From Escherichia coli (GTDB lineage Bacteria > Pseudomonadota > Gammaproteobacteria > Enterobacterales > Enterobacteriaceae), in the NCBI RefSeq assembly GCF_003334785.1, contig NZ_QOWV01000034.1: a DNA stretch of 9,131 nucleotides; one strand, written 5' to 3'. Numbering within the stretch: position 1 is the first letter of the stretch; every line of letters starts with the position of its first letter. Position numbers and translations under genes: made by a program. Below are positions 1,386 to 8,570 of the stretch, in pieces. The notes below the pieces were generated by a model. It searched no databases, was not told where the DNA came from, and was given only the letters and a program-made list of their open reading frames with translations.

Positions 1386-1428
1386 TACTGTACGAAGAAA
1401 GAAACTACCGACTTCCGCGGAGATCACA

Positions 1429-1437
1429 TGGTAGAAT
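1429..1437 (+). promoter_or_regulatory. Candidate extended -10 promoter element (TGGTAGAAT) upstream of the 1507-2082 membrane protein gene
   Basis: TGnTAGAAT resembles an extended -10 (TG + TATAAT, 5/6 match) about 70 nt upstream of the ATG at 1507. No convincing -35. A GAGG Shine-Dalgarno lies about 6 nt before the ATG. Sequence-only guess. Confidence 0.25.
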
Positions 1438-1506
1438 GCTATGTGATAAAAAATGAGGTTGTGGTTGCCCGGGCCCAGATTGAAGTTCCCATAAGCTGAG
1501 GTTTTT

Positions 1507-2082
1507 ATGACGCAATCAGAGATGCTGAAATTAATCGCCCGACATGGTTATAACGTTGGATTTGGCGCTAAGAAAAACTTTGCCACCTATGATCTGATTT
1601 GTAAGGCATCCGGTTGGATTAGCTTTATTTCTCTTGCTGTCGGTGTGTTCGCCCTTTTTATTCCTGAGCTGGCCACAAACGTCATTTCCGCGATATTAAT
1701 TATATTTGGTGTTGCTACAATGTACATTCAGTTTTATGACTCGGAAAAGCAGAGTTATGAAAGTGCGGGGATTGAGCAGACCAAAATTTTTAATGAACTT
1801 GAAGTCATCTACCGCAACGTAAAAAGCGATGCAAACTTTGACTATCAGCGTACACAACAATCCATCGACGCTATCATGTCCCGGTTTTACGGCACGGTCA
1901 TCAGCAAACAGATCTTCGGAAGTAACTGGTACGCACATTATAAATTTTACTGTGAATTTGAAAAAGCATGGGTTGAAGAAGAGCTGAACCTGACACTGAA
2001 GGACAAAATCCCGCTTTCGCTCTGCTTTCTCGCCGGTCTGGCGATCATTTTTACTATAGCTGTCATCTGGAAAACGCCCTGA
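1507..2082 (+). CDS. Small multi-pass membrane protein of unknown function (two adjacent N-proximal hydrophobic helices plus a C-terminal one; SLATT-like or Abi-like effector topology is a guess)
   Basis: 191-aa ORF with GAGG RBS. Hydrophobic segments WISFISLAVGVFALFIPEL and ISAILIIFGVATMYIQF (about residues 36-76) and IPLSLCFLAGLAIIFTIAVIW (about 168-188), separated by a charged, presumably soluble ~90-aa region. AT-rich codon usage like the neighbouring defence operon. Confidence 0.7.
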   Translation: MTQSEMLKLIARHGYNVGFGAKKNFATYDLICKASGWISFISLAVGVFALFIPELATNVISAILIIFGVATMYIQFYDSEKQSYESAGIEQTKIFNELEVIYRNVKSDANFDYQRTQQSIDAIMSRFYGTVISKQIFGSNWYAHYKFYCEFEKAWVEEELNLTLKDKIPLSLCFLAGLAIIFTIAVIWKTP

Positions 2083-5410: not shown

Positions 5411-7194
5411 TAAGCGTCCTTATTCCATTGTTCATCTTTTAATGCTGCAGTCATCCACGCTGGTCGTTTCATCCCCAACTGTAATTCCTGTAGATAACGA
5501 ATTAATATGCTGGCTGCATCTGTTGAGTAGCGGGCCAACAGACATGCGCCGGAAAAGCCTCTGGGCTTACGATCCCAATCTGATACCTGCCGTAACTGGT
5601 TAATTAAACCTTCCATTACAGGTATTTGCTCCTCACGAGGAAGTGCTTTCAAAAGGTTTTCTGCTGTAGGAGAACTAGTGTTTTTCAATTCAATTAGTGC
5701 ATTTAGTACTTCCCGTCCAGATGGCGATAAACCAACCACATATGCACCTATTGGCATAGTTTCTCGGGACAGATATATGGCGGCCCTTAAGTCAATCCCA
5801 CCAAGACGAGGTTCAAGTTGGGCCCATTGACTGATGAAAGATTTAGTCGTTGGACTATCAGTCCATGTCTTTGGTGCATCAGTAGGTATTTGACCGCCAT
5901 TATCGTCAAGCTGTTTAAGTATCTGGGGAACACCTTGTTCAATATCCACGAGATGATATAAATCAGCGGTGCCATCCACTCCAACACAGCGTTCAAAAAT
6001 TACTAGCTTAGTAATAATTGCTTCATCCAAAGGCATTGCTCGTCGCTTCGCAATTTGAGATCGCATTTTCACAACATTCAACAAGCGTTTAACGATCCTG
6101 GGATTACCATGAATAATTGGAGAGTTGGCTAAAATGGGAGCAATACGGTCAGCACGCGCAAACGCCAGCGCGAGGTTGCTATCATCCGCTTCACCAGTCA
6201 TTTTTAAGGCCTCCTGACGTGAGATTGGTTCATCTTTCCAGGATTGCTGTAACGCCTTCTCTAAGCCCTCACGGAGCATAGTTATTTTTTCGCCTTCTAA
6301 GCCATGTTCAATGGCATAAAGCATGAACAGATACGAACGGATCTCACGGACCCCAGCCTTAGGCACCCGAATAGGAACCTGGATTAGCTTATCCAGATAA
6401 TCTATTTGATGGCGCTGTGATGCCCCTTTGAAGTAATCAGCCACAGAAGAGCGAATCATGTCCTCATCTGCTGCAATAATAAAGGCTGTATTAGTCAAGA
6501 AAAGGAATAGCCTGATAGCTTCAAGTGTATGGATAGCATTGGCAGGGAGACAGCGGTCTAGGTTATCTATTACCACAATGAGTGGCTTTCCAAGTTCTTC
6601 TAGAATTTCCCCATATTCCTTACGAAAGGCATCAATCTGCTGAGGGGGGCTTTTTTTTGTTTGTGGTTTAATCAAACCACAAGCAGTTTCTTTACCTTCT
6701 TTAGCTATATTGCCTAAAGCCTCATACTCTTCCTGGCTCTGGATGCCATCGGTGATATTTCTTAATGCACCAATCCCCCTAGAAAGCAAACCGCCAGTAG
6801 GTAATCCTGCCATTAAAGCTGTACCCTCAGCTAGTAATCCCATAGCTCTAAAACCATCAACTCGACTAAGGAGTCTCTTAGTTTTTGATATAAGGGTAGA
6901 ATTACCTTCAGCAGCTTTTGTCAATTCTGTAGCGATGACTTCAAGAAGTGCGGCACGGGCGTCGTCGTACCCCTGATAGAGCCAAGAGTCAAAATTGATA
7001 ACAATCCAATCTTTGTCGTCTTGCTCAAGTTTTTGCTCTATCAGTTTTAACAGAGAGGATTTACCTGCCCCCCAGTTTCCAAAAATTCCGATAGATACTG
7101 GTAACATATCTTTCGTGGTAAGTACATCCACGGCTAACTGAGATACTTCACCAAAATTTAGGTAGTCTTCTGATGACTCTTTGTCTGACCACAT
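5410..7194 (-). CDS. qatA: KAP-family P-loop NTPase, QatA
   Basis: 594-aa ORF. Walker A GNWGAGKSS at residues 39-47 (nt 7057-7080). Walker B-like PLIVVIDNLDRC, the hhhhDxLDR signature typical of KAP NTPases. AAGGAT RBS 6 nt upstream of ATG. First gene of the four-gene operon. Confidence 0.8.
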   Translation of the reverse strand: MWSDKESSEDYLNFGEVSQLAVDVLTTKDMLPVSIGIFGNWGAGKSSLLKLIEQKLEQDDKDWIVINFDSWLYQGYDDARAALLEVIATELTKAAEGNSTLISKTKRLLSRVDGFRAMGLLAEGTALMAGLPTGGLLSRGIGALRNITDGIQSQEEYEALGNIAKEGKETACGLIKPQTKKSPPQQIDAFRKEYGEILEELGKPLIVVIDNLDRCLPANAIHTLEAIRLFLFLTNTAFIIAADEDMIRSSVADYFKGASQRHQIDYLDKLIQVPIRVPKAGVREIRSYLFMLYAIEHGLEGEKITMLREGLEKALQQSWKDEPISRQEALKMTGEADDSNLALAFARADRIAPILANSPIIHGNPRIVKRLLNVVKMRSQIAKRRAMPLDEAIITKLVIFERCVGVDGTADLYHLVDIEQGVPQILKQLDDNGGQIPTDAPKTWTDSPTTKSFISQWAQLEPRLGGIDLRAAIYLSRETMPIGAYVVGLSPSGREVLNALIELKNTSSPTAENLLKALPREEQIPVMEGLINQLRQVSDWDRKPRGFSGACLLARYSTDAASILIRYLQELQLGMKRPAWMTAALKDEQWNKDA

Positions 7195-7325
7195 TTTTAT
7201 ATCCTTTACATCACCAATTTTTACGTCATTGAGTAAACTACAGGTTTGATAAAACCAACTCTGTTCAGGTGGGCAAATTCAGTGTACCACTTCACCAATA
7301 ATCCAATATGATGACTGCTATAGAT
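7195..7325 (-). promoter_or_regulatory. Intergenic region between the 373-aa gene and qatA; probable location of the qat operon promoter and qatA RBS
   Basis: 131-bp AT-rich gap, the only non-overlapping junction in the 8447->2635 gene string. Contains AAGGAT SD for qatA. I could not pick a convincing -35/-10 pair by eye. Confidence 0.3.
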
Positions 7326-8447
7326 CTATTTTTTAAAGAATGAAATAAGCTTTCTTATCCCAGTCCATATTTTCCTATCAGAATCCGAAGGGTTAAATTC
7401 GCTCTTGTCAAAATCAGCAACCTCAGCAACCTCAGCAACCTCAGCAACCTCAGCAACCTCAGCAAGGTTTATTCTATTTTGATGAGCTGTCAAATGTTCT
7501 TTGTTAATTTCATCTCTAATTAGCTGTTCTTTTTCTATGCTGTAGTTTTTGTCATTATAAGTCACATCAAAATCATCTAAGAAAACGATATAAATCAATT
7601 TAAAAAAACTAGTCTTAAATAAAAAACTATCGCACTCATCAGGAAAACCAAAAAAGAAAACATTAAGATATTTGGTTGCTTTGCGCTTGTCTTTTAGTCC
7701 ATTATAATACTTATTTGCTTCTGCTCTTTGTTTTTCATACTCACTACAGAAAAAACTCTTTTTACTTTCATCCCATTCTGAAGCATCAATTTCAAGTTTA
7801 TATGCTTGTTTGGTACCTTTCTTTCTGGCTAAAAAAGTAAGGTAATATCTATTCGAATTTATCTCCAGCCGTATATTAGATTGAATTTTACCAAAATAAA
7901 TTGCTGGCTTATTATATCTAATTCCTTCTTTATAGATGATTAGTTGAAAAGTATCTTTATAAGTTCTAACTCCATAAGGGGGAATTGATAATGGTTCATA
8001 GAGATTATCTCCATTAATGTAGTAGTCTACTACCGGTTTGATGCTTGAAGATGACACAGGGTGTACTTTACCTCCCAAATCTTTTTCATCATCTCGCGTC
8101 TGTTTGATAATTCTTCTGCCAGAAGAGTCGTAATTTCTTTCAGACACATCAAGTTTCAGAAGAGATATAGCTAATGCCGGTGGTGAATTATGCTTTTTAT
8201 TATTCTTTGAGTTACACTTATTTTTACTCTTAGGATCATGAATCTTACATCCCGGCCTATGAGTCTCTTTATATCGAAAGTATGATTGATTTAAATTTAT
8301 TTCTTTGAAGCTACATGGAGTAGCGGGTATCCTACATTTGTCATACGGGCATTCAAAAGTGGTTGTTCGTATATAAAGATCATCCATTTCCCGAAGATCA
8401 TGACCATGAACAATTTCACCACTAACAGAATCTCTTGCTATTGTCAC
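7326..8447 (-). CDS. Hypothetical protein, 373 aa, very AT-rich, N-terminal Cys/His-rich segment and C-terminal (AEV)n repeat; possible accessory defence gene
   Basis: Long ORF with strong Shine-Dalgarno (AAGGAG, 6-nt spacer) before the ATG at 8447. N-terminal HGHD...ECPYDKCRIPATPC...HRPGCKIHD. Lys/Asn-rich low-complexity stretches. Same strand and immediately upstream of qatA. No family recognised. Confidence 0.7.
   Translation of the reverse strand: MTIARDSVSGEIVHGHDLREMDDLYIRTTTFECPYDKCRIPATPCSFKEINLNQSYFRYKETHRPGCKIHDPKSKNKCNSKNNKKHNSPPALAISLLKLDVSERNYDSSGRRIIKQTRDDEKDLGGKVHPVSSSSIKPVVDYYINGDNLYEPLSIPPYGVRTYKDTFQLIIYKEGIRYNKPAIYFGKIQSNIRLEINSNRYYLTFLARKKGTKQAYKLEIDASEWDESKKSFFCSEYEKQRAEANKYYNGLKDKRKATKYLNVFFFGFPDECDSFLFKTSFFKLIYIVFLDDFDVTYNDKNYSIEKEQLIRDEINKEHLTAHQNRINLAEVAEVAEVAEVAEVADFDKSEFNPSDSDRKIWTGIRKLISFFKK
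7415..7466. repeat. Perfect tandem repeat, 9-bp unit CAGCAACCT x5 plus a partial sixth, in-frame within the 373-aa CDS (encodes AEVAEVAEVAEVAEV)
   Basis: Direct reading: units at 7415-7423, 7424-7432, 7433-7441, 7442-7450, 7451-7459, then CAGCAAG. Unit length is a multiple of 3, so copy-number change alters protein length without frameshift. Confidence 0.9.
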
Positions 8448-8570
8448 ACAATCTCCTTTGATAAAAATTAATAGATTCTAATTTCATACCAAGGCTAATT
8501 TAAATAAAGGCTATTTAAGAGAAAAACAAGTCAGCCTGACAGACATATCCCCTCCCATGGCAATATGCCG

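What the first reader, a model, noticed from the sequence alone, without database searches (positions are those of the whole stretch)
1386..8500. About 7 kb AT-rich block (membrane gene, qatDCBA, 373-aa gene) bounded by an IS on the left and higher-GC DNA on the right: a probable horizontally acquired defence islet
By eye the IS (GC-rich) and the right flank (from about 8550) differ sharply in composition from the block between them, whose genes share Lys/Asn/Ile-rich, A/T-ending codon usage. All recognisable functions in the block are defence-like. The hypothesis to test is that the membrane protein, the Qat operon and the 373-aa gene travel together as one unit.
Basis: partly seen in the sequence, partly recalled or inferred. 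Interest (0 to 1): 0.4.

Follow-up and report, generated by a model that had tools for sequence, protein, structure and literature searches.

The report
Mosaic E. coli anti-phage defence islet
The AT-rich block is a real piece of horizontally acquired E. coli island DNA, but it is three independently mobile modules (a broken CBASS system, an intact QatABCD system and an Avs8B-like gene) stitched together by mobile-element scars, and the same block is already present and annotated in about 240 complete E. coli genomes.

Summary
The low-GC block is real. GC drops from 53.8% to 43.8% exactly at the IS629 end (1385) and rises again near 8520. A third sharp shift at about 7140 splits off the 373-aa gene (32.8% GC).

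The block has three modules:
- **Type I CBASS.** An IS629-associated deletion left only 37 codons of the cyclase gene, so the SLATT "membrane gene" is an orphan effector.
- **qatABCD.** Intact.
- **The 373-aa gene.** I show it is a distant homologue of Avs8B (PD-λ-4 B). It carries a hypervariable 9-nt (AEV)n repeat.

Mobile-element debris (a group II intron fragment and an IS21 end) lies between CBASS and Qat.

In 5,426 complete E. coli genomes the parts are almost always together (243-247 carriers, at least 234 with the whole block, about 99.5% or more identity). Outside that haplotype they are independent:
- 0 of 85 Qat loci elsewhere have either neighbour.
- The CBASS pair sits alone on 62 plasmids.
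- The 373-aa family sits beside OLD, Hachiman, BREX, type I RM or relaxase genes.

The IS is not the islet's edge, and the right flank is a decayed T6SS vasL gene cut by an IS66-family element.

Verdict: ordinary, largely known defence cargo at a variable hotspot. The "one unit" idea is not supported.

The parts
1..75 (.). IS30 transposase-gene fragment (left debris, outside the block)
   Evidence: In TW10722 the identical sequence is annotated as a partial IS30 transposase. Hits H4 and H5 start matching the window only at 74-76.
76..1385 (+). IS629 (IS3 family), 1310 bp, with orfA 130-456, orfB 453-1343 and the ALIL frameshift pseudoknot at 411-527. There is no target-site duplication (cag on the left, tac on the right).
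   Evidence: NCBIfam transpos_IS3. Rfam ALIL, 120 bits. Terminal repeats TGAACCGCCCCGGG and CCCGGGGCGGTTCA were read directly. Annotated as IS629 in relatives.
1386..1499 (+). 3' remnant (37 codons plus stop) of the CBASS CD-NTase gene; the other ~405 codons of the 442-aa protein are missing
   Evidence: The intact 442-aa gene in L001 matches PADLOC Cyclase PDLC00796 (E 9e-177) and Pfam SMODS + AGS_C. RefSeq annotates the remnant as 'incomplete, missing N-terminus' in TW10722. The junction is found in 3 of 5,426 genomes.
1507..2082 (+). SLATT_6 two-transmembrane CBASS effector (191 aa), intact but orphaned
   Evidence: PADLOC Effector 2TM PDLC00695, E 1.8e-82. NCBIfam SLATT_6, 223.8 bits against a cut-off of 100. 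100% identical to the copy that sits next to an intact cyclase.
2165..2387 (-). Group II intron fragment in the CBASS-Qat spacer
   Evidence: 91-95% identity to ltrA-associated intron DNA on Buttiauxella, Xenorhabdus and Enterobacter plasmids.
2446..2479 (.). Terminal fragment of an IS21-family (ISSso4-like) element
   Evidence: About 35 bp that recur in hundreds of E. coli records. In L005 they lie immediately after istB of ISSso4.
2635..3360 (-). qatD (TatD-family nuclease, 241 aa)
   Evidence: PADLOC QatD, E 5.8e-97. NCBIfam QatD, 331.5 bits against a cut-off of 230.
3357..4676 (-). qatC (QueC-like PP-loop protein, 439 aa)
   Evidence: PADLOC QatC, E 1.1e-140. NCBIfam QatC, 414 bits against a cut-off of 280. 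The SGGLDS motif is visible in the translation.
4658..5410 (-). qatB (250 aa), with the N-terminal MGTS motif
   Evidence: PADLOC QatB, E 2.3e-130, covering 1-248 of 248 profile positions. The protein starts MGTSQSS...PLVPPW. The MGTS motif and the essential G2 are described in PMC13279940.
5410..7194 (-). qatA (KAP-family P-loop NTPase, 594 aa)
   Evidence: PADLOC QatA PDLC02210, 1133 bits, covering 1-593 of 593. The Walker A motif GNWGAGKS is invariant in alignment A1.
7326..8447 (-). 373-aa Avs8B (PD-λ-4 B)-like protein: a CCHC zinc finger, a β-barrel, a long helix, an acidic repeat and a C-terminal amphipathic helix. It forms its own 33%-GC compositional domain.
   Evidence: No Pfam match. 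hhalign of its clade against the PD-Lambda-4_B clade gives probability 99.94% and E 9.7e-37 over residues 1-291 (support). AF2 model with pLDDT 84.7. C33, C38, H63 and C67 are invariant.
7414..7465 (-). Perfect 9-nt tandem repeat GCTGAGGTT encoding (AEV)n, with 5 full units here
   Evidence: Tandem Repeats Finder: 5.8 copies, 100% match. There are 24 units in CFT073 and 38 in BS74R-D. In 29 of 33 other E. coli records the excess is a whole multiple of 9 nt, 2 to 60 extra units.
8564..9056 (-). Island backbone: a truncated 31-codon ORF (8665-8570) and a vasL (T6SS) pseudogene fragment (8686-9056)
   Evidence: 96-97% identical to strains that carry Zorya II instead of this cargo; homology starts at 8564. 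Annotated as a VasL domain. Some match in 886 E. coli genomes.
9057..9131 (.). End of an IS66-family element (terminal repeat GTAAGCG...) that cuts vasL
   Evidence: Sequence read directly. In TW10722 an ISEc23 (IS66-like) transposase follows at this point. Most relatives stop matching at 9056.

Best explanation
Window 1386-8563 is accessory cargo at a variable site downstream of a decayed type VI secretion gene (vasL), inside integrase/tRNA-associated E. coli genomic islands. It is a mosaic of three modules with separate origins.

**(1) Type I CBASS.** This is a two-gene system: a SMODS/AGS-C cyclic-nucleotide synthase plus a SLATT two-transmembrane effector. In this strain's lineage an IS629-associated deletion removed all but 37 codons of the cyclase, along with the operon's 5' end. 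The effector can no longer receive its signal, so the module is inferred to be dead.

**(2) qatABCD.** The operon is intact. From published work, QatC (QueC-like) binds QatB and is proposed to modify its N-terminal glycine. QatB and QatC alone give defence against some phages. QatA (a DNA-binding KAP NTPase) and QatD (a TatD nuclease) widen the range.

**(3) An Avs8B-like gene.** It has its own RBS and a promoter-like site. It encodes a zinc-finger/β-barrel protein whose acidic (AEV)n spacer varies about ten-fold in length between strains. Its function is unknown. By inference it is a nucleic-acid-binding accessory or stand-alone gene that repeatedly sits beside different defence systems and relaxases.

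The modules were juxtaposed by mobile-element activity; intron and IS scars lie between CBASS and Qat. They have since spread within E. coli as a single near-clonal haplotype of about 8.8 kb. Their co-occurrence there reflects linkage rather than an obligate functional unit.
For: **Anatomy and family assignments:**

**Composition:** three compositional tiers with sharp change points at 1380, 7140 and 8520.

**Co-inheritance inside E. coli:**
- 247, 243 and 245 genomes carry the three parts, and 234 carry the whole block, at about 99.5% identity or more.

**Independence outside that haplotype:**
- tblastn of 80 + 5 Qat loci finds qatABCD colinear in 71 of the 80 loci and in all 5 further loci (76 of 85) but no homologue of the 373-aa protein or of SLATT.
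- Nucleotide homology to Brenneria, Photorhabdus, Rahnella and Citrobacter Qat covers only 2635/2643-7208.
- The CBASS pair occurs alone, IS-flanked, on IncF plasmid pEC507_1 and on 62 plasmids at 95-99% identity. Qat-bearing plasmids are from other genera.
- The 373-aa family occurs in other settings:
  - next to vasL/OLD and an integrase in Klebsiella and Citrobacter;
  - after type I RM in Providencia;
  - beside Hachiman;
  - beside BrxR/BREX;
  - beside TrwC or MobQ relaxases.

**Hotspot:** the same vasL backbone carries Zorya II + IbrAB, a methyltransferase/ATPase set, or TerB/helicase genes in other strains.

**Scars:** intron fragment and IS21 end; IS629 without a target duplication; IS629/cyclase junction in 3 of 5,426 genomes.

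**Qat mechanism:** PMC13279940 and PMC13376578.
Against: - CBASS I and qatABCD were reported to co-occur and to co-localise non-randomly in E. coli (bioRxiv 2022.08.21.504612). Selection for the pair, for example through synergy, is therefore not excluded.
- No terminator-like site lies between the 373-aa gene and qatA, so co-transcription is possible.
- Several foreign contigs of the 373-aa family end inside the repeat, so their downstream neighbours are unseen.
- That the orphan SLATT gene is inactive is an inference. IS629 could supply outward transcription.
- No experiment here tests the function of any part.
Confidence: 0.85

Rival explanations
1. One reading: the membrane protein, qatDCBA and the 373-aa gene form one co-transferred functional defence unit. 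For example, SLATT could act as a Qat effector and the 373-aa protein as a fifth Qat component.
For: - The parts co-occur almost perfectly in E. coli (243-247 genomes).
- The 373-aa gene is on the same strand as qatA, 131 bp upstream, with no predicted terminator between them.
Against: - 0 of 85 Qat loci outside this haplotype have either partner.
- Homology to foreign Qat operons ends 14 bp upstream of qatA and at the qatD stop.
- SLATT is the cognate effector of a cyclase whose remnant still precedes it.
- SLATT is convergent with qatD, across 550 bp of intron and IS debris.
- The three parts have three different GC3 levels.
- Published Qat defence needs only Qat genes.
Confidence: 0.04
2. 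The modules are separate systems, but selection for synergy keeps them adjacent. CBASS I plus Qat, possibly with the Avs8B-like gene, would give broader or stronger protection together. The block would then be a selected 'defence cassette' rather than a product of mere linkage.
For: - CBASS I and qatABCD co-occur and co-localise non-randomly in 26,362 E. coli genomes.
- The composite is found with at least three different left flanks.
Against: - All E. coli copies are about 99.5% or more identical, so the statistical association can come from one haplotype.
- The association vanishes in other species and on plasmids.
- In this window's lineage the CBASS half has been destroyed while Qat is retained.
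Confidence: 0.1
3. The compositional steps do not mark separate origins. They would reflect gene-specific constraints, such as protein composition and the low-complexity repeat, within a single acquired segment.
For: - All three parts are below the roughly 50-54% GC of the flanks.
- The 373-aa protein is rich in K, N and I.
Against: - The differences are largest at third codon positions (48% vs 34-36% vs 25%).
- The change points coincide with independent homology breakpoints at 7208/7317 and 8505/8564.
Confidence: 0.03

Closest known systems
QatABCD anti-phage system (Gao et al. 2020; mechanism in PMC13279940 and PMC13376578)
   Same: - Four colinear genes: qatA (KAP NTPase), qatB (MGTS N-terminus), qatC (QueC-like PP-loop) and qatD (TatD).
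- All are full-length against the PADLOC profiles; QatC and QatD also exceed their NCBIfam curated cut-offs, while QatA (385.8 bits against 600) and QatB (74.4 against 100) fall below theirs.
- 84-94% identical to operons in Salmonella, Photorhabdus, Brenneria, Rahnella and Citrobacter.
   Different: Nothing essential differs. The flanking 373-aa gene and SLATT gene are not part of the system elsewhere.
Type I CBASS with a SMODS/AGS-C CD-NTase and a SLATT (2TM) effector
   Same: - The effector is intact.
- The gene order and the 7-nt spacing to the cyclase stop codon are as in intact copies.
- The same pair is on 62 enterobacterial plasmids.
   Different: Only the last 37 codons of the cyclase remain after the IS629 event. 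The system is incomplete here.
Avs8B / PD-λ-4 protein B (Vassallo et al. 2022; bioRxiv 10.1101/2025.07.02.662641)
   Same: - Homologous over the whole ~300-residue Avs8B domain (hhalign probability 99.94%, E 9.7e-37).
- The CCHC motif is conserved.
- It also sits next to a defence NTPase gene.
   Different: - Only about 23% identity.
- No Avs8A (Mrr-STAND) partner; the neighbour is QatA.
- It has an extra C-terminal helix, a hypervariable acidic repeat and a terminal amphipathic helix.
- Avs8B itself was dispensable for λ defence and has no known function.
Defence islands / integration hotspots in E. coli islands, including the reported CBASS I-qatABCD co-localisation (bioRxiv 2022.08.21.504612)
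   Same: - Low-GC cargo with a presence/absence polymorphism.
- An integrase and tRNA-Phe are nearby in relatives.
- Alternative defence cargo (Zorya II and others) occupies the same site.
   Different: In this window the cargo is partly decayed and is bracketed by two unrelated IS elements.

Membership tests
QatABCD | KAP-family P-loop NTPase QatA with an intact Walker A motif | tested here: met
   PADLOC QatA, 1133 bits, covering 1-593 of 593. GNWGAGKS is invariant across 20 homologues. The NCBIfam QatA equivalog scores 385.8 bits, below its 600-bit cut-off. This copy belongs to the PADLOC PDLC02210 subtype.
QatABCD | QatB with a disordered N-terminus that starts with the MGTS glycine motif | tested here: met
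   The translation starts MGTSQSSKGPGGGSPLVPPW. The motif and its requirement are described in PMC13279940. PADLOC QatB, E 2.3e-130.
QatABCD | QueC-like QatC and TatD-family QatD, in the gene order A-B-C-D on one strand | tested here: met
   NCBIfam QatC scores 414 bits (cut-off 280) and QatD 331.5 bits (cut-off 230). The ORFs overlap or abut on the minus strand. The same order is seen in 71 of 80 foreign loci.
QatABCD | Anti-phage activity of this operon | not testable with these tools
   Activity has been shown for P. aeruginosa and E. coli operons in the literature, not for this copy.
Type I CBASS | A complete CD-NTase (SMODS) cyclase gene | tested here: not met
   Only 1386-1499 (37 codons) remain. 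The intact relative is 442 aa.
Type I CBASS | An effector gene immediately downstream of the cyclase | tested here: met
   SLATT_6 / PADLOC Effector 2TM, full length.
Avs8 (PD-λ-4) | An Avs8A Mrr-STAND NTPase encoded next to the B gene | tested here: not met
   A PADLOC scan of every large ORF in the window found no PD-Lambda-4_A. The neighbour is QatA.
Avs8 (PD-λ-4) | Homology to Avs8B / PD-Lambda-4_B | tested here: met
   Direct hit at E 3.6e-6. Intermediate relatives are full-length PD-Lambda-4_B. Profile-profile comparison gives E 9.7e-37.
Horizontally acquired genomic islet | Composition deviating from the flanks, with discrete boundaries | tested here: met
   Change points at 1380, 7140 and 8520.
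Horizontally acquired genomic islet | Presence/absence polymorphism and association with an integrase or tRNA | tested here: met
   About 245 of 5,426 genomes carry it. In BS74R-D it lies 1.7 kb from a tyrosine integrase next to tRNA-Phe.
   0 of 85 Qat loci, none of the contexts examined for the 373-aa family (some contigs end inside the gene), the one plasmid context inspected (pEC507_1), and no Qat match in the host genera of the 62 CBASS plasmids.
Composite transposon | Two copies of the same IS bracketing the cargo, with target duplications | tested here: not met
   IS629 lies on the left and an IS66-family end on the right. No duplication flanks IS629.

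The most novel reading that the evidence does not exclude
The 373-aa protein represents an unrecognised branch of the Avs8B family. It is not a component of any one system. Members recur beside unrelated defence systems (Avs8A, Qat, OLD, Hachiman, BREX/BrxR, type I RM) and beside conjugative relaxases. They share a CCHC zinc finger and a β-barrel. In enterobacterial and Vibrio members there is also a C-terminal amphipathic helix, held at a distance set by a hypermutable acidic repeat ((AEV)n or (PE)n). Such a protein could be a stand-alone sensor, a regulator, or a mobile-element factor whose repeat length is under diversifying or contingency selection.
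Probability: 0.2. Interest if true: 0.55.

Novelty: already known. Interest (0 to 1): 0.25.

Why it matters
As a defence islet it adds little. The same block is in CFT073 and about 240 other complete genomes, PGAP already names the qat genes, and the CBASS I-Qat co-localisation in E. coli is published.

The useful results are corrective:
- The statistical CBASS-Qat association in E. coli can be explained by one mosaic haplotype rather than a functional coupling.
- The 'membrane gene' here is a stranded CBASS effector.
- The IS marks decay, not an island edge.

The side finding may matter more. The orphan gene is an Avs8B relative with a length-hypervariable repeat, and its family flanks many different defence systems. 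That gives a testable handle on a protein family currently described as having no known homology or function.

Tried and rejected
- **First segmentation attempt.** Binary segmentation found only the IS boundary, because a low-GC dip is invisible to a single split. Dynamic-programming segmentation replaced it.
- **Rfam.** At gathering thresholds it found only the IS629 ALIL pseudoknot. It found no group II intron or other RNA in the spacers.
- **373-aa protein, sequence searches with no result.** Pfam, NCBIfam and PDB sequence search gave nothing. PHROGs hits to the long E. coli version fell only on the repeat region.
- **Phage collection.** It holds no close copy of the cyclase.
- **Promoter and terminator scans.** They were at or below shuffle expectation and decide nothing about co-transcription.
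- **Composite transposon.** Considered and rejected, because the two IS elements are from different families and there is no target duplication.
- **One literature search failed for lack of capacity.**

Full report
**What is in the window**

The window is E. coli island DNA. The ORF list and three profile libraries give this order:
- 1-75: an IS30 fragment.
- 76-1385: IS629, with its ALIL frameshift pseudoknot.
- 1386-1499: a 114-nt remnant of another gene.
- 1507-2082 (+): a SLATT_6 two-transmembrane protein.
- 2083-2634: a 552-bp spacer.
- 2635-7194 (-): qatD, qatC, qatB and qatA.
- 7326-8447 (-): the 373-aa ORF.
- 8686-9056 (-): a fragment annotated in relatives as a VasL-domain (type VI secretion) pseudogene.
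- From 9057: the GTAAGCG... terminal repeat of an IS66-family element.

**Check of the observation**

A sliding profile and an optimal segmentation confirm a discrete low-GC block. It has an internal step:

| Segment | GC |
|---|---|
| 1-1380 | 53.8% |
| 1381-7140 | 43.8% |
| 7141-8520 | 32.8% |
| 8521-9120 | 49.8% |

- The left step is the IS629 end.
- Third-position GC separates three tiers: SLATT 48%, qat genes 34-36%, the 373-aa gene 25%.
- K+N+I content follows the same split: 22.5%, 15-17.5% and 25%.

The block is therefore real but not uniform.

**The left edge is damage, not a boundary**

- In relatives without the IS (BS74R-D, CFT073), SLATT is preceded by a 442-aa gene that ends 7 nt upstream of it.
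- That protein is a CBASS cyclase: PADLOC PDLC00796 at E 9e-177, and Pfam SMODS + AGS_C.
- The window keeps only its last 37 codons.
- IS629 has no target duplication (cag on the left, tac on the right) and abuts an IS30 fragment. This points to an IS-associated deletion.
- The exact IS629/cyclase junction exists in 3 of 5,426 complete E. coli genomes.
- The 'membrane gene' is therefore a stranded type I CBASS effector. That it is now inactive is an inference.

**The CBASS-Qat spacer is mobile-element debris**

- 2165-2387 is 91-95% identical to group II intron DNA.
- 2446-2479 is the end of an IS21-family element.
- Homology to a plasmid-borne copy of the CBASS pair stops at 2288.

**Qat**

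- All four proteins match the PADLOC Qat profiles end to end. QatC and QatD exceed their NCBIfam curated cut-offs; QatA (385.8 bits against 600) and QatB (74.4 against 100) do not.
- QatB begins MGTS..., the motif shown to be essential (PMC13279940).
- Published work gives the most likely mechanism:
  - QatC binds QatB 1:1 and probably modifies its N-terminal glycine, by analogy with Cap9 deazaguanylation.
  - QatB and QatC alone protect against λvir.
  - QatA binds DNA and oligomerises.
  - QatA and QatD extend the range of phages covered.
- Nothing in this copy departs from that description.

**Do the parts travel together? Inside E. coli, yes.**

- The SLATT segment is in 247 genomes, qat in 243 and the 373-aa region in 245. 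The whole 1386-9056 stretch is in at least 234 genomes. Almost all copies are about 99.5% or more identical.
- The left flanks differ between strains:
  - tRNA-Phe and an integrase in BS74R-D;
  - decarboxylase/antiporter genes and IS elements in CFT073;
  - an SNF2/methyltransferase/helicase cluster in TW10722.
- The right flank is always the vasL remnant.
- This matches a published report that CBASS I and qatABCD co-occur and co-localise in E. coli.

**Outside that haplotype, no.**

*Qat loci*
- I collected 80 Qat loci from other species with up to 10 kb of flank. I added 5 more from Salmonella (QatA 94% identical) and from a second E. coli type (90%).
- tblastn finds QatA-D colinear in 71 of the 80 loci and in all 5 further loci (76 of 85). 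It finds no homologue of the 373-aa protein or of SLATT in any locus.
- 75 of the 80 loci have enough upstream sequence to show the 373-aa gene if it were there.
- Nucleotide homology to the closest foreign operons (84-86%) covers only 2635/2643-7208.

*CBASS pair*
- It is alone and IS-flanked on IncF plasmid pEC507_1.
- It is on 62 plasmids of Klebsiella, Salmonella, Escherichia and others at 95-99% identity.
- The 11 plasmid records that match qat come from other genera.

*The 373-aa family*
- It occurs without Qat or CBASS in the following settings:
  - Klebsiella and Citrobacter, after vasL and an OLD-family nuclease. In Citrobacter it lies directly before the integrase beside yqgA and speC;
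  - Providencia, after a type I RM system;
  - Enterobacter;
  - Xenorhabdus;
  - pVA1-type Vibrio plasmids;
  - a Yersinia megaplasmid, next to MobQ;
  - one E. coli, as a 92%-identical pseudogene.
- Caveat: several of these contigs end inside the gene's repeat, so their downstream sides are unseen.

**The site is a hotspot**

- Strains E203449 and STEC313 share the vasL backbone with the window from 8564 onward (96-97% identity). They carry a different small gene, type II Zorya and IbrAB instead.
- Other strains carry a methyltransferase/ATPase set or TerB/ATPase/helicase genes.
- 886 genomes have some match to the backbone, but only about 245 have this cargo.
- A 31-codon ORF at 8665-8570 is the truncated 5' end of the gene that precedes Zorya in those strains.

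**The 373-aa gene**

*Homology*
- It has no Pfam or NCBIfam match.
- A full-library phmmer search found 68 relatives.
- The distant ones are full-length PD-Lambda-4_B, for example P0172 at E 3e-92.
- Profile-profile alignment of the two clades gives probability 99.94% and E 9.7e-37 over residues 1-291.
- PD-λ-4 is now called Avs8. Avs8A senses major capsid proteins. Avs8B was dispensable for λ defence and was described as having no homology to known proteins.

*Structure*
- An AlphaFold2 model (pLDDT 84.7) shows these elements:
  - an N-terminal CCHC zinc finger, with C33, C38, H63 and C67 invariant, and a weak CoiA_N hint;
  - a long helix;
  - a disordered acidic repeat;
  - a C-terminal amphipathic helix (...FFKK).
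- Orthologues replace (AEV)n with (PE)n but keep the terminal helix.

*Contexts*
- Other family members lie beside Hachiman, BrxR/BREX, and a TrwC relaxase with ArdA.
- I infer that this is not a dedicated subunit of any one system. Its function remains untested.

**The repeat**

- 7414-7465 holds five perfect GCTGAGGTT units.
- CFT073 has 24 units and BS74R-D has 38.
- Across 33 other E. coli records the excess is 2-60 units (median 27). It is a whole multiple of 9 nt in 29 of the 33.
- Database proteins of this family are mostly 'partial' and end at the repeat. This shows that the repeat breaks short-read assemblies.
- The window's count is the lowest seen and may be an assembly collapse.

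**Verdict**

- The block is a genuine, horizontally acquired defence cargo, but an ordinary and largely known one.
- It is a mosaic of a broken type I CBASS, an intact QatABCD and an Avs8B-like gene.
- The parts are held together in E. coli by descent as one haplotype, at a vasL-adjacent hotspot.
- The most interesting by-product is the Avs8B-like family, with its hypervariable spacer and its promiscuous defence and mobility neighbourhoods.

Noticed in passing
window 7414-7465 (minus strand, inside the 373-aa gene): A perfect 9-nt tandem repeat encoding (AEV)n. The window has 5 units, against 24 in CFT073, 38 in BS74R-D and up to about 65 in other E. coli. Units are identical within arrays. 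The window has the fewest seen, so its count may be an assembly collapse.
   Followed up: partly
window 7326-8447; loci L102, L103/L104, L106, L094, L095, L006-L010: The 373-aa protein is a distant Avs8B (PD-λ-4 B) homologue. Family members sit beside Hachiman, BrxR/BREX, OLD nuclease, type I RM, TrwC or MobQ relaxases and the pVA1 transfer region. Orthologues swap (AEV)n for (PE)n but keep a C-terminal ...FFKK helix.
   Followed up: partly
window 76-1385 and flanks 73-75 / 1386-1388: IS629 is complete (1310 bp) but has no target-site duplication. It lies between an IS30 fragment and the cyclase remnant, which implies a deletion or recombination rather than a simple insertion.
   Followed up: yes
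window 2165-2387 and 2446-2479: A group II intron fragment and the terminal ~35 bp of an IS21-family (ISSso4-like) element lie in the spacer between SLATT and qatD. The 35-mer recurs on hundreds of E. coli chromosomes and plasmids.
   Followed up: partly
window 8570-8665 (minus strand): A 31-codon ORF (MENKPKRMRTPWAIEDIRYLETHYGVKKNAK). It is the truncated start of a 179-204-aa gene that follows vasL and precedes Zorya II in strains E203449 and STEC313. Homology breaks at 8564.
   Followed up: partly
window 9057-9131: An IS66-family terminal inverted repeat (GTAAGCGTCAACGG...) cuts the vasL fragment. Most relatives diverge from the window exactly at 9056.
   Followed up: partly
loci L011, L012, L107, L108 (E. 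coli), L006-L008 (Klebsiella, Citrobacter): The region just downstream of the T6SS vasL gene carries different defence-like cargo in different strains: Zorya II + IbrAB, a methyltransferase/ATPase set, TerB/helicase genes, or an OLD nuclease. It behaves as a cargo hotspot.
   Followed up: partly
QatA homologues P0019-P0138; loci L014-L093: QatA is 74-94% identical across very distant hosts (Enterobacterales, Oceanobacter, Marinobacter, Aeromonas, Shewanella, Halomonas and a Desulfobulbaceae MAG). This suggests recent wide horizontal spread of one Qat subtype.
   Followed up: no
locus L003 (TW10722) 12130-15613: In the closest complete relative, the IS629 copy is itself interrupted by a group II intron (ltrA). 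The window's copy is uninterrupted.
   Followed up: no
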